A stretch of 1,091 nucleotides of DNA from Naegleria gruberi (lineage: Eukaryota), in assembly GCA_000004985.1 (NCBI GenBank), contig GG739568.1. One strand, 5' to 3'. Made by a program: the position numbers and the translations under genes. This document shows, piece after piece, positions 1-1,091 of the stretch (positions are counted from its first letter, which is position 1; the number at the start of each line of letters is the position of its first letter). The notes below the pieces were generated by a model that worked only from the letters and a program-made list of their open reading frames with translations, did no database searches and was not told where the DNA came from.

Positions 1-229
1 TTACATTATTCTTATTGAGACAATCACAAAAATCACTTCCCTTCCATTGTACAGTAACTTGTTGTCTATCTTTTGAGTGATAAACCAGCTCAACTGTGAT
101 TAATAGATTTTTATCTTTCAACATCTTCTCAAATAGGGCAGTGTTAACATTCTTTGAGACTTTGATCTTGATTTTGGATTTATGGTTTAGAATATGTACA
201 TCACCATCGTCTATTGTTACTCCTTCCAT
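1..229 (-). CDS. Hypothetical small protein, 3'-partial. It starts at ATG 227..229, continues past position 1, and its frame uses codons 2..4, 5..7 and so on. Visible product: MEGVTIDDGDVHILNHKSKIKIKVSKNVNTALFEKMLKDKNLLITVELVYHSKDRQQVTVQWKGSDFCDCLNKNNV...
   Basis: I translated this frame by hand codon by codon. It has no stop from 286 down to 2 (95 codons), and the first start codon after the TAA at 287..289 is ATG 227..229. The translation is globular-looking, with mixed charged and hydrophobic periodicity, not low-complexity. It is absent from the supplied ORF track, presumably because it has no in-window stop. It lies 14 nt downstream of the stop of the 244..1017 gene on the same strand, which looks like an operon. 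I see no SD at a functional distance: GGAGG at 249..253 is 19 nt from the ATG. Confidence 0.55.
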   Translation of the reverse strand, partial: MEGVTIDDGDVHILNHKSKIKIKVSKNVNTALFEKMLKDKNLLITVELVYHSKDRQQVTVQWKGSDFCDCLNKNNV

Positions 230-243
230 ATCTGTACTATACT

Positions 244-1017
244 TTATACCTCCAAAACAAACATGTGAAGGTTTGATTTCTGAATGTTAAATTTTGGATA
301 GGTTCGTTTGTAGAAATTATTAATTTCTTCAACTCCTTTAGCCCACATTTCGTCATGATAAAAAACTATTGGAAAAGTATAGACGACATGATTTTCTAAA
401 TAGTCAACAACAAGTTCATTTGGAATAACAGGATTAGGCAGAATGAAAAATCTACAATCATAACATCCATCAGCAAGTTTCTCCTTTGTAGATTGGGCTT
501 CCATCACAAAAGATGTACTTCCAGTTATTGGATCGGTCCAACTATGACCAAAATCCATGAGTACTTCATTACTGAACGGCTCTTGATTTGCTTGTAAAGC
601 AACACCAAACAACAAACAGTTCAATAACAGAATGGCAAACGTTTGTAATTTCATTTTTTTTTGATTAGTTGAATAGTAATATAATAGAAACATAAGTCTA
701 TTGTCTAATTGTGAGATTGTGGTTCTATTATTCGAATCGTAGAATTTTTTCACTAGAGAACCAGCATTTCTCGACTTGACACTGAAACTGTTGGTACTAT
801 TCAATCCATCCCCAACAATGGTATCGACCCTCCAATGACCACTCCATTGTTTTGAGCTACCAACACTAGCCAATCCCAATAATGATGTAGGTCTATTAAG
901 CTTGTATATCATACATTGTGAATAATCGTAATAGTTTTTTAAAGAATATATACCTGTTTTGGCAGGTATAAAAGGAGTCAATTCACCCGTTGAATTCACT
1001 TTAGTTGATATGAACAA
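244..1017 (-). CDS. Hypothetical exported or membrane-anchored small protein with a C-x-x-C pair. Coordinates are the maximal ORF (TTG at 1015..1017 to TAA at 244..246). The more probable biological start is ATG 652..654, which gives a 136-aa precursor with an N-terminal signal peptide.
   Basis: A stop-free minus-strand frame of 257 codons is supplied in the ORF track. My hand count of minus-strand stop triplets across 655..1017 gives 0 in this frame against 11 and 6 in the other two frames. Internal M122 is followed by a K-rich n-region, an 18-residue hydrophobic core and a G-V-A / A-L-Q-A small-residue cleavage context. The mature part is NQEPFSNEV...DGCYDC...FVLEV. Codon usage includes CTG, CCG, ACG and GCC, which is more bacterial than protist-like. 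There is no SD upstream of either candidate start. I recognise no homology. Confidence 0.6.
   Translation of the reverse strand: MFISTKVNSTGELTPFIPAKTGIYSLKNYYDYSQCMIYKLNRPTSLLGLASVGSSKQWSGHWRVDTIVGDGLNSTNSFSVKSRNAGSLVKKFYDSNNRTTISQLDNRLMFLLYYYSTNQKKMKLQTFAILLLNCLLFGVALQANQEPFSNEVLMDFGHSWTDPITGSTSFVMEAQSTKEKLADGCYDCRFFILPNPVIPNELVVDYLENHVVYTFPIVFYHDEMWAKGVEEINNFYKRTYPKFNIQKSNLHMFVLEV
589..654 (-). other. Coding segment for a predicted signal peptide or single transmembrane signal-anchor (MKLQTFAILLLNCLLFGVALQA), beginning at the internal ATG 652..654.
   Basis: Translation of 589..654 on the minus strand shows a positively charged n-region (MK), an uninterrupted hydrophobic stretch, then a polar c-region with A/G at -1/-3 positions (GVA|LQA|NQ). 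KK immediately N-terminal of the segment fits the positive-inside rule under either interpretation. Confidence 0.55.
654..662 (-). repeat. Homopolymeric tract of nine A on the minus strand (nine T on plus) whose last A is the A of ATG 652..654.
   Basis: Direct count: plus 654..662 are all T. The minus strand reads C-AAAAAAAAA-TG-AAA. Confidence 0.9.
678..707 (-). promoter_or_regulatory. Candidate sigma70-like promoter for the ATG-654 start: -35 TAGACA (plus 702..707), 18-nt spacer, -10 TATATT (plus 678..683).
   Basis: I derived the hexamers by hand on the minus strand. They lie in the 21% G+C segment 655..720, about 24 nt upstream of the ATG. AT-rich DNA gives many -10-like hexamers by chance, so this is weak. 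Confidence 0.2.
814..851. repeat. 8-bp inverted repeat AACAATGG ... CCATTGTT with a 22-nt spacer, inside coding sequence.
   Basis: Plus 814..821 is the reverse complement of 844..851. It overlaps the codons for QW...HW on the minus strand and is probably incidental. Confidence 0.5.
949..970. repeat. Perfect 8-bp inverted repeat TATACCTG-ttttgg-CAGGTATA with a 6-nt spacer.
   Basis: Seen directly. Plus 949..956 is the exact reverse complement of 963..970. It lies inside the N-terminal part of the long ORF and about 85 nt upstream of the possible plus-strand ATG 1054. Confidence 0.8.
980..999. repeat. Direct repeat AATTCAC (980..986 and 993..999, period 13). The second copy is embedded in the 8-bp palindrome TGAATTCA (991..998).
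   Basis: Seen directly in the sequence. Confidence 0.7.
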
Positions 1018-1034
1018 TATGGATTACTTTTGAA

Positions 1035-1043
1035 AGGGAGAGG
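1035..1043 (+). promoter_or_regulatory. SD-like ribosome-binding motif AGGGAGAGG upstream of ATG 1054.
   Basis: Seen directly in the sequence. The spacer to the ATG is 10 nt, slightly long. It matters only if the plus-strand start is real. Confidence 0.3.
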
Positions 1044-1053
1044 AACATAACAT

Positions 1054-1091
1054 ATGTATTGTTTTAAAATTGTTCCAATTGTCTTTTTAAT
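1054..1091 (+). CDS. Possible 5' end of a divergently oriented gene (ATG 1054, MYCFKIVPIVFL...), running off the right edge.
   Basis: ATG at 1054..1056 is open for the 12 codons to the window end. It is preceded by the purine-rich SD-like AGGGAGAGG (1035..1043), with about a 10-nt spacer. Only 38 nt are visible. A competing reading of this region is the 3' end of a minus-strand ORF (999..1091, stop TGA at 996..998). Confidence 0.25.
   Translation, partial: MYCFKIVPIVFL

What the first reader, a model, noticed from the sequence alone, without database searches (positions are those of the whole stretch)
589..1017. Ambiguous N-terminus: signal-peptide protein fused in frame to about 120 upstream codons through an AT-rich linker
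The ATG at 652..654 begins a classical signal peptide, which would normally mark the N-terminus of a 136-aa secreted precursor. Yet the same frame stays open for 121 more codons upstream, to a TTG at 1015..1017 preceded two codons earlier by TAA at 1024..1026. By hand count this stretch has zero minus-strand stops in frame against 11 and 6 in the other two frames, so the upstream part looks genuinely coding. Its composition splits in two. Segment 761..820 is about 43% G+C, which is coding-like. Segment 655..720 is about 21% G+C and translates to low-complexity junk-like sequence (LMFLLYYYSTNQKK). This fits three readings. It could be a real bitopic protein, with a 121-aa cytoplasmic N-domain, one TM signal-anchor and a C-x-x-C ectodomain. 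It could be two adjacent genes where the upstream one has lost its stop, giving read-through fusion. Or it could be an upstream remnant. Each reading implies a different product and localisation.
Basis: partly seen in the sequence, partly recalled or inferred. Interest (0 to 1): 0.5.

Follow-up and report, generated by a model that had tools for sequence, protein, structure and literature searches.

The report
Dead receptor-gene fragment fused to ORF
The "extra" 121 codons upstream of the signal-peptide methionine are a broken leftover of a duplicated Naegleria gruberi receptor gene that happens to stay open in the same frame, so this is a gene-model ambiguity, not a new kind of protein.

Summary
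ORF 244..1017(-) has 257 codons, and 121 of them lie upstream of the ATG at 654..652 with no stop.

The window is a whole 1,091-bp scaffold of the eukaryote Naegleria gruberi. GenBank model XP_002667956.1 (NAEGRDRAFT_77134, 222 aa) starts at the first in-frame ATG (912..910), so it already contains most of the extension.

The extension is not a cytoplasmic domain. Window 1002..721 is homologous to residues 135-279 of the ectodomain of a N. gruberi receptor-like protein with a weak cyclase-domain match (NAEGRDRAFT_64468; N. fowleri FDP41_008709). Identity is 76% over aligned columns. The copy has lost both ends of the parent gene. It has also lost the two most conserved blocks (21 and about 22 aa). 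It carries two compensating frameshifts, so 14-15 ancestral codons now sit in another frame. It shows no extra conservation at family-invariant sites.

The stretch 720..655 matches nothing and has neutral codon statistics.

The 136-aa signal-peptide ORF has no credible homologue, but it looks coding and its ATG has an A-rich context.

Best reading: a pseudogene fragment next to a separate orphan ORF that starts at 654. That ORF's own 3' end is also doubtful. Interest is low.

The parts
244..1017 (-).
   Evidence: There are 0 in-frame stops in 655..1017, against 8 and 11 in the other frames.
244..912 (-). The CDS as annotated in GenBank: XP_002667956.1 / EFC35212.1, NAEGRDRAFT_77134, UniProt D2W6U0, 222 aa. 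It starts at ATG 912..910.
   Evidence: 100% identity over 222 aa, and the longest contig holding it is 1091 bp. The ATG context is acaATGtATGata, with T at -3 and an overlapping out-of-frame ATG at 916 that opens a 6-codon ORF.
868..1002 (-). Relic segment A, in the ORF frame. It matches P0002 (NAEGRDRAFT_64468 family) aa 135-206, with in-frame deletions of 2, 21 and 4 aa.
   Evidence: BLASTP 9e-25 and tblastn 2e-26; frameshift-aware alignment. The 21-aa deletion removes the family-invariant block G164...Y183.
825..866 (-). Relic segment B. The ancestral codons VLVAQNNGVVIGGS (P0002 aa 230-243) now lie in a different frame from the ORF. The ORF reads them out of frame as part of SVGSSKQWSGHWRV.
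   Evidence: tblastn frame -1 gives 13/21 identical to P0003 (E 0.002) and 12/20 identical to the N. fowleri-type P0004. Frameshifts were placed at about 866 and about 823. Codon log-odds are +9.0 bits in the ancestral frame and -0.5 in the ORF frame. The preceding deletion of about 22 aa removes invariant block N209...Y229.
721..825 (-). Relic segment C, back in the ORF frame. DTIVGDGLNSTNSFSVKSRNAGSLVKKFYDSNNRT matches P0002 aa 245-279. Homology ends here.
   Evidence: No significant match continues into 720..580.
655..720 (-). AT-rich spacer (21% G+C) ending in A9 directly before the ATG. It has no homology. It is most likely the untranslated or promoter-proximal sequence of the downstream ORF.
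   Evidence: G+C. Codon log-odds are +1.1 bits, that is neutral. It stays open by chance in 14% of shuffles. No match to P0002 or P0004 beyond chance.
589..654 (-). ATG 654..652 plus 22 codons with signal-peptide layout (MKLQTFAILLLNCLLFGVALQA)
   Evidence: Hydropathy and the -3/-1 rule. ATG context is caaaaaaaaATGaaa. No signal-peptide predictor was available.
247..588 (-). Remaining 114 codons of the orphan ORF. It includes C-Y-D-C at 465..454, and the stop TAA is at 246..244.
   Evidence: Open in 0 of 20000 shuffles. Codon log-odds are +33 bits in frame, against -42 and -76 out of frame. No credible homologue, no Pfam family, and AlphaFold2 pLDDT 42.
2..286 (-). A second coding-like frame (95 codons, ATG at 229..227). 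It overlaps the end of the 136-aa ORF and runs off the contig. It could be the same gene after a frameshift or an intron, or a separate piece.
   Evidence: Open in 1e-4 of shuffles. Codon log-odds are +9 bits, against -21 and -48. No homologue and no Pfam family.

Best explanation
The window holds two unrelated pieces of sequence that happen to share a reading frame.

Piece 1 (1002..721, minus strand) is a dead partial copy of a Naegleria gruberi receptor-like gene. The parent is NAEGRDRAFT_64468. Its layout is TM1, an ectodomain of about 300 aa, TM2, then a divergent cyclase-like domain. Only ectodomain residues 135-279 survive in the copy. The copy has lost the parent's N-terminus, TM2 and the cyclase-like domain. 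Its two best-conserved blocks are deleted. A pair of compensating frameshifts puts 14-15 ancestral codons out of frame. Most of the fragment is still in its ancestral frame and is only about 24% diverged, so it carries no stop and still looks coding.

Piece 2 is an orphan ORF. It starts at ATG 654..652 behind a 66-nt AT-rich, A9-terminated leader and opens with a signal peptide.

The frame of piece 1, the stop-free spacer and the frame of piece 2 coincide. An ab initio gene caller therefore extended the model to the first ATG (912..910) and produced the 222-aa database protein.

Shown: the homology, the deletions, the frameshifts, the truncation, the lack of extra constraint, and the absence of any homologue that joins the two parts.

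Inferred: transcription and translation of the downstream ORF begin near 654, giving a 136-aa secreted precursor, and the upstream part is not part of a functional product.
For: Source and annotation:
- The organism and the database model are identified.

Homology of the upstream part:
- ORF aa 6-99 match P0002/P0003 aa 135-279 (BLASTP 9e-25, tblastn 2e-26).
- Identity is 71/94 in the aligned columns.

Signs of decay:
- The frameshift-aware alignment scores 243, against 219-223 without frameshifts. It places VLVAQNNGVVIGGS in another frame, between frameshifts at about 866 and about 823.
- The same out-of-frame segment is hit independently by P0003 and by the N. fowleri-type P0004.
- The deleted blocks are the densest runs of invariant residues between the N. 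gruberi and N. fowleri proteins.
- The relic keeps 30/38 sites that are invariant between those two proteins and 41/56 variable sites. Fisher p = 0.63, so there is no sign of the parent's constraint.

Limits of the homology:
- It does not extend into 1003..1091 or 720..580 beyond shuffle level.
- Full-length P0003 and P0004 match nothing else in the window.

The downstream ORF:
- No protein among 5.8 billion clusters or 1.84 billion representatives credibly resembles the 136-aa part. The three hits are repeat-inflated, with a best single stretch of 13.3 bits.
- So no homologue joins the two halves.
- The spacer has neutral codon statistics, while the 136-aa ORF scores +33 bits in frame.
- ATG 654 sits in an A-rich context. 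ATG 912 has T at -3 and an overlapping out-of-frame ATG.
Against: - No transcript, EST or proteomic data could be consulted, so the actual 5' end is unknown.
- Three of the five deletions in the relic are in frame, and the two frame-shifting ones cancel. Under pure neutral decay this has a probability of about 1/80 (my estimate). The shared frame with the downstream ORF (1/3) and the open spacer (0.14) add to that. Some selection for an open frame therefore cannot be excluded. However, the window was flagged and annotated precisely because the frame is open, which is ascertainment bias.
- The relic contains no stop codon.
- The 136-aa ORF has no homologue, even in other Naegleria species. It lies on a 1-kb unplaced scaffold, and a second coding-like frame follows it directly. 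It may itself be broken, in which case there is no 'true' N-terminus at all.
Confidence: 0.5

Rival explanations
1. Nothing in the window is a live gene. The receptor fragment is dead, and the 136-aa ORF together with the following 95-codon frame is a second decayed gene, split by a frameshift. The scaffold would be a scrap of degenerate, probably repeated DNA, and the database protein would be a pure prediction artefact.
For: - A second coding-like frame (286..2; open in 1e-4 of shuffles; codon log-odds +9 bits) overlaps the 3' end of the 136-aa ORF in another frame. It leaves only 14 nt between that ORF's stop and its own ATG, which is implausible for two separate eukaryotic genes.
- Neither frame has any homologue, not even in N. 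fowleri, whose proteins are in the databases.
- The contig is 1,091 bp and unplaced.
- Its neighbour on the contig is demonstrably a pseudogene fragment.
- AlphaFold2 gives pLDDT 42.
Against: - A 136-codon frame with a textbook signal peptide directly after an A-rich ATG context is unusual for decayed DNA.
- In-frame codon statistics are as good as those of real genes.
- The frame change to the next ORF could be a sequencing error, or an intron that starts at the GTATAA overlapping the stop codon.
Confidence: 0.3
2. The fused frame is a real, young chimeric gene. A captured fragment of the receptor ectodomain is translated from ATG 912 as an 86-residue N-terminal extension. The hydrophobic stretch then acts as an uncleaved signal-anchor, giving a type II membrane protein.
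For: - The frame is open across relic, spacer and ORF: 5e-5 by shuffle for the whole stretch, and 0.14 for the spacer alone.
- The deletions in the relic are in frame or mutually compensating.
- KKMK before the hydrophobic core and acidic residues after it fit an N-in orientation.
- The official model uses this start.
Against: - The extension derives from an extracellular domain. Its conserved core blocks are deleted and part of it is read out of frame, so it cannot fold like its parent.
- There is no extra conservation at constrained sites.
- No homologue has this architecture.
- ATG 912 has a poor context and an overlapping upstream ATG, and there are two more short upstream ORFs at 1053 and 1048.
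- The hydrophobic core is only 15-18 residues long and contains an Asn, which is signal-peptide length rather than a typical membrane span.
- The spacer has neutral codon statistics.
Confidence: 0.12
3. The whole 257-codon frame is one strongly diverged paralogue of the receptor. Under this reading the hydrophobic stretch is the family's second membrane span (TM2), not a signal peptide, and the 114 residues after it replace the cytoplasmic domain.
For: - The order is colinear. In the parent, TM2 starts 46 residues after NNRT. In the window, the hydrophobic stretch starts about 25 residues after NNRT.
- LMFLLYYY loosely resembles the parent's IFFVLYE strand.
Against: - The match of 730..580 to P0002 278-360 and to P0004 356-440 is at shuffle level (scores 23 and 18, against a shuffle mean of 22).
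- The charge distribution (KKMK before, NQEPFSNE after) is the opposite of the parent's TM2, which is followed by SRPMKFLEKQFERIK.
- Nothing after the hydrophobic stretch resembles the family.
- The ectodomain part is frame-shifted.
Confidence: 0.04

Closest known systems
Unprocessed (duplicated) pseudogene fragment absorbed into an ab initio gene model
   Same: - Clear homology to an intact parent gene in the same genome.
- Truncation at both ends, large internal deletions and frameshifts.
- No extra conservation at sites that are constrained in the parent.
- The open frame was picked up by a gene caller that extends to the first ATG.
   Different: - It has no premature stop codon.
- Its indels leave the frame open and in phase with a neighbouring ORF. 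That is why it mimics an N-terminal domain.
NAEGRDRAFT_64468 (N. gruberi, D2V6K2) / FDP41_008709 (N. fowleri): receptor-like membrane proteins with a divergent class III nucleotide-cyclase-like domain
   Same: Window 1002..721 is 76% identical, over aligned columns, to residues 135-279 of the N. gruberi protein. It keeps the protein's N-x-S/T sequons.
   Different: - Only 94-108 of 678-854 residues are represented.
- TM1, TM2 and the cyclase-like region are absent.
- The invariant blocks are deleted.
- The frame is broken twice.
- The family's own assignment is weak. Pfam Guanylate_cyc scores E 0.004-0.05 and dCache_1 scores E 0.15, all below the curated cut-offs. Matches to solved cyclases in the PDB score E 0.04.
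Secreted precursor with a cleavable N-terminal signal peptide
   Same: The short form (from ATG 654) has a basic n-region, a hydrophobic core of 15-18 residues and small residues at -3/-1.
   Different: - No homologue, no recognised domain and no confident fold.
- Its C-terminus is uncertain, because a second coding-like frame follows directly.

Membership tests
Duplicated pseudogene fragment | Significant homology to an intact parent gene | tested here: met
   BLASTP 9e-25 and tblastn 2e-26 to P0002/P0003.
Duplicated pseudogene fragment | Disabling lesions: frameshifts, truncation, or loss of conserved core | tested here: met
   - Two frameshifts, at about 866 and about 823.
- Parent residues 1-134 and 280-678 are absent.
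- The deleted blocks coincide with runs of invariant residues.
Duplicated pseudogene fragment | Premature stop codon in the ancestral frame | tested here: not met
   No stop anywhere in 1017..655 in the ORF frame, nor in the shifted segment 866..822. About one stop would be expected at this divergence (my estimate), so its absence is weak evidence.
Duplicated pseudogene fragment | Relaxed selective constraint | tested here: inconclusive
   Substitutions fall equally on invariant sites (8/38 changed) and variable sites (15/56 changed); Fisher p = 0.63. This fits neutrality, but the sample is small. dN/dS could not be computed because the parent's DNA was not retrievable.
NAEGRDRAFT_64468 / FDP41_008709 receptor-like family (as an intact member) | Two membrane spans flanking the ectodomain, plus a C-terminal cyclase-like region | tested here: not met
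   Full-length P0003 and P0004 match only 1002..721 of the window. The flanks are at shuffle level.
NAEGRDRAFT_64468 / FDP41_008709 receptor-like family (as an intact member) | Conserved ectodomain blocks G-x-E-G-V-Y-G-x-P-Y-K and L-S-K-I-x-L-x-G-R-G-Y | tested here: not met
   Both blocks fall within the 21-aa and the roughly 22-aa deletions.
   The only homologues of the N-region are receptor ectodomains, and they do not continue into the 136-aa part. There are no credible homologues of the 136-aa part.
   The best 19-residue Kyte-Doolittle mean is 1.86, but the uninterrupted apolar core is 15-18 residues with an internal Asn. No TMHMM-type predictor was available.
Cleavable secretory signal peptide (short form from ATG 654) | n-region with positive charge, h-region, and c-region with small residues at -3/-1 | tested here: met
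   The sequence is M-K, then LQTFAILLLNCLLFGVAL, with possible cleavage at GVA|L or LQA|N. This is a rule-based check only.
Cleavable secretory signal peptide (short form from ATG 654) | Translation actually starts at this ATG | not testable with these tools
   No transcript or proteomic data were available. No other contig carries the ORF.
Thioredoxin-like / C-x-x-C redox ectodomain | Recognisable thioredoxin-fold family around the C-x-x-C | tested here: not met
   No Pfam family matches even at E up to 10, apart from noise. The model has low confidence. C-Y-D-C are the only two cysteines after the signal peptide.

The most novel reading that the evidence does not exclude
The fused frame is a genuinely expressed, newly born chimeric gene of N. 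gruberi. A captured, scrambled fragment of a receptor ectodomain would now serve as the cytoplasmic tail of a signal-anchored orphan protein. The frame would have been kept open by selection, which would explain the in-frame and compensating indels.
Probability: 0.1. Interest if true: 0.4.

Novelty: new member of a known kind. Interest (0 to 1): 0.15.

Why it matters
- This mainly matters for annotation. UniProt D2W6U0 / XP_002667956.1 is most likely a chimera of a pseudogene fragment and an orphan ORF. Its N-terminus, and probably its C-terminus too, should not be trusted for localisation or domain analyses.
- It is also a small example of how a recently duplicated, decaying gene fragment can imitate an N-terminal domain simply by staying in frame.
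- If the fusion were expressed, it would be a modest case of new-gene birth from a gene fragment in a protist with a large cyclase family. PMC9928731 counts at least 81 cyclases in Naegleria.

Tried and rejected
1. Bacterial reading (TTG start, Shine-Dalgarno logic). Dropped once the source proved to be Naegleria gruberi.

2. Homologues of the 136-aa part.
- The word-indexed search found only the protein itself.
- The exhaustive HMMER search gave three hits (P0005, P0006, P0007) with E values from 1e-8 to 7e-5. All are repeat proteins whose scores are sums over many copies. The best single stretch is 13.3 bits, which is far from significant. Rejected as homologues.

3. The idea that the 136-aa ORF is the N-terminal part (TM1 plus first helix) of the same receptor family. 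The 'NFYKRTYPKF' / 'NFRQYLFPKY' resemblance gives hhalign probability 1.4% and P = 0.038. Frameshift-aware scores are within 0-1.7 SD of shuffles. Not supported.

4. Extension of the relic into 1003..1091 ('VPLP..SNP') or into 720..580 (the family's last strand and TM2). Scores are at shuffle level.

5. Structure prediction.
- The 136-aa ORF gave pLDDT 42.
- The parent P0002, with a 3-sequence alignment, gave pLDDT 30.
- Both models are unusable, so no fold searches were run.
- A profile of the family against PDB sequences gave nothing.

6. Retrieval of the parent's DNA, or of other contigs carrying the ORF. Nothing is on record. The metagenome scan found no relative. dN/dS and transcript-end tests were therefore impossible.

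7. An intron joining the 136-aa ORF to the next frame. 106 formal GT..AG combinations keep the frame open, and none is distinguished. The shortest (26 nt) is below the 30-nt minimum intron length that PMC8296547 set for N. fowleri read mapping. The attractive GTATAA..TACAG pair (18 nt) keeps the wrong frame.

8. RNA families and repeats. No Rfam match. Only three short inverted repeats were found, with no direct repeats.

9. Literature. The locus tags and accessions are not mentioned in any paper searched.
Full report
**What the window is**

The 1,091-base window is a complete small scaffold of the amoeboflagellate Naegleria gruberi. The ORF on its minus strand is 100% identical to GenBank XP_002667956.1 / EFC35212.1 (NAEGRDRAFT_77134, UniProt D2W6U0, 'predicted protein', 222 aa). 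The longest contig that holds that protein is 1,091 bp. The window's 32.4% G+C fits the 33% reported for the N. gruberi genome (PMC8296547). Eukaryotic rules therefore apply. The TTG at 1017..1015 is not a start. The annotated model begins at the first in-frame ATG, 912..910.

**The observation**

It holds up.
- The frame 244..1017(-) is open for 257 codons, 121 of them upstream of the ATG at 654..652.
- Stops in 655..1017 number 0, 8 and 11 in the three minus-strand frames.
- Only 5e-5 of shuffles keep 121 codons open.
- The G+C values (43% for 761..820, 21% for 655..720) and the translation LMFLLYYYSTNQKK are correct.
- The MKLQTF... segment has signal-peptide anatomy by simple rules.

**What the upstream 'coding-like' part is**

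It is homologous to a known N. gruberi protein.
- ORF residues 6-99 (window 1002..721) match residues 135-279 of P0002/P0003, NAEGRDRAFT_64468, with BLASTP 9e-25 and tblastn 2e-26.
- That protein has an N. fowleri counterpart (FDP41_008709, in the same 90% cluster as P0004), which UniRef names 'Guanylate cyclase domain-containing protein'.
- The family's layout, read from the sequences, is: membrane span, ectodomain of about 300 residues, second membrane span, then a region with a weak cyclase-domain match.
- The domain assignments are all sub-threshold and should be treated as leads. Pfam Guanylate_cyc scores E 0.004 and 0.05. dCache_1 scores E 0.15. Matches to solved nucleotide cyclases in the PDB score about E 0.04.
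- Naegleria carries a large set of membrane cyclases, at least 81 according to PMC9928731.

**State of the copy**

The copy in the window is badly damaged. A frameshift-aware protein-to-DNA alignment shows the following lesions relative to the parent:
- in-frame deletions of 2, 21 and 4 residues;
- a deletion of about 22 residues that also shifts the frame, at about 866;
- 14 ancestral codons (VLVAQNNGVVIGGS, 866..825) that lie in a different frame from the ORF;
- a second shift at about 823, effectively a 4-nt loss at GGSI|DT, that restores the ORF frame.

The out-of-frame segment is found independently by tblastn with P0003 (13/21 identical) and with the N. fowleri-type P0004 (12/20 identical), both at exactly the colinear position. 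Codon statistics also prefer the ancestral frame there: +9.0 bits against -0.5.

The two large deletions remove the densest runs of residues that are invariant between the N. gruberi and N. fowleri proteins: G164..Y183 and N209..Y229. Nothing in the window matches parent residues 1-134 or 280-678.

Where the copy can be aligned it is 76% identical to the N. gruberi parent (71/94) and almost never sides with N. fowleri (2 sites). It is therefore a fairly recent, lineage-specific duplicate. Its substitutions hit family-invariant sites (8/38) as often as variable sites (15/56); Fisher p = 0.63. That is the pattern expected without the parent's constraint, although the sample is small.

In short, 1002..721 is a truncated, internally deleted, frame-shifted gene fragment. 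It looks coding because it was coding not long ago and most of it is still in its ancestral frame.

**The spacer**

Homology stops at 721. The next 66 bases (720..655) match nothing above shuffle level. Their codon statistics are neutral at +1.1 bits. They stay free of stops in 14% of shuffles. They end in nine A's directly before the ATG.

Low G+C alone is not decisive, because 901..960 inside the relic is equally AT-rich.

**The downstream ORF**

Evidence that it is, or recently was, coding:
- From ATG 654 the 136-codon ORF is never open in 20,000 shuffles.
- It scores +33 bits in frame, against -42 and -76 out of frame, in a codon model trained on Naegleria genes from locus L001.
- It begins with a signal-peptide-like segment.
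- Its ATG context (AAAAAAAAATGA) is better than that of ATG 912, which has T at -3, an overlapping out-of-frame ATG at 916, and two more short upstream ORFs further up.

Evidence that it is an orphan:
- The word-indexed search found only the protein itself.
- The exhaustive HMMER search returned three repeat proteins whose scores are sums of many weak copies. The best single stretch is 13.3 bits.
- There is no Pfam family, and AlphaFold2 gives pLDDT 42.

Its 3' end is also uncertain. A second coding-like frame of 95 codons (286..2, ATG at 229..227) is open in only 1e-4 of shuffles. It overlaps the ORF's last 40 bases in another frame and runs off the contig. The stop TAA sits inside a GTATAA donor-like site. 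No particular intron is favoured, and the frame has no homologue. Either a frameshift (real or a sequencing error) or an intron may therefore join the two frames.

**Weighing the readings**

That test fails. The only homologues of the N-region hold it inside an ectodomain, and none continues into the 136-aa sequence. In addition, the region derives from an extracellular domain (its NST/NST/NRT sequons are those of the parent), has lost its conserved core and is partly read out of frame. A folded 'cytoplasmic N-domain' is therefore implausible.

One point speaks for some selection on the open frame. Three deletions are in frame and the two shifting ones cancel. I estimate the probability of that under neutral decay at about 1/80. 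On top of that come the shared phase with the downstream ORF (1/3) and the open spacer (0.14). But the locus was annotated and flagged precisely because the frame is open, so this cannot be read as a probability.

My estimates are:
- about 0.5 that the true product, if any, is the short signal-peptide form, with the upstream part a relic;
- about 0.3 that the whole scaffold is dead sequence;
- about 0.12 that the fused protein is real;
- about 0.04 that the whole frame is one diverged receptor paralogue whose 'signal peptide' is TM2. The charge distribution and the shuffle-level similarity speak against this.

**Comparison with known things, and novelty**

This is an ordinary phenomenon: a duplicated gene fragment (an unprocessed pseudogene piece) swallowed by an ab initio gene model.
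- It is not an intact member of the receptor family, because the defining spans, blocks and cyclase-like region are absent.
- It is not a demonstrable type II membrane protein.
- The short form works like a secretory precursor by simple rules, but it has no family.

The finding is useful as an annotation correction and otherwise of low interest.

**What could not be done**

No transcript or proteome data were available, and the parent's DNA could not be fetched. The actual 5' end and dN/dS therefore remain untested. The accessions appear in none of the papers searched.

Noticed in passing
window 2..286 (-), ATG at 229..227: A second coding-like frame of 95 codons overlaps the end of the annotated ORF in another frame and runs off the contig. 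It is open in 1e-4 of shuffles and has positive codon log-odds. The annotated stop TAA (246..244) lies inside a GTATAA donor-like site. The annotated C-terminus is therefore as doubtful as the N-terminus. The frame has no homologue.
   Followed up: partly
window 289..426 (-), ORF aa 200-245 (short-form aa 79-124): There is a weak colinear resemblance between ELVVDYLE...GVEEINNFYKRTYPKF and residues 34-78 of the same receptor family (KIITYLD...GVVTIPMFRNYLFPKF), and it follows a hydrophobic segment as in the family's N-terminus. hhalign gives P = 0.038 and probability 1.4%, and frameshift-aware scores are within 2 SD of shuffles. It is probably chance. If real, the whole scaffold would be receptor-gene debris.
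   Followed up: yes
P0002 (XP_002668711.1, 43.9-kb contig) and P0003 (XP_002680337.1, 665-kb contig): Two N. gruberi gene models on different scaffolds are 100% identical over 71% of P0002 but have different N-termini. P0003 lacks TM1 and the first 120 or so ectodomain residues, and P0002 is marked partial. This suggests either a haplotig or very recent duplicate, or a mis-modelled 5' end in the 'parent' gene as well.
   Followed up: no
window 910..916 (-): The annotated start ATG (912..910) overlaps an out-of-frame ATG at 916..914 that opens a 6-codon ORF. Two further short upstream ORFs start at 1053 and 1048.
   Followed up: partly
window 681..695 and 717..731: A 15-nt imperfect inverted repeat (87% complementary, 21 nt apart) spans the boundary between the relic and the AT-rich spacer. 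There is also a 14-nt palindrome at 631..650 inside the signal-peptide codons. Both are short enough to be chance.
   Followed up: no
exhaustive protein search result (P0005, P0006, P0007): All three sub-1e-4 hits to the 136-aa ORF were repeat proteins whose full-sequence scores (39-51 bits) are sums of 3-16 weak stretches, each of 13.3 bits or less. Full-sequence E-values mislead for repeat-rich targets.
   Followed up: yes
window 901..960: A second G+C trough (about 22%) lies inside the part that is homologous to the receptor ectodomain. Low G+C in this genome therefore does not by itself mark non-coding sequence.
   Followed up: no
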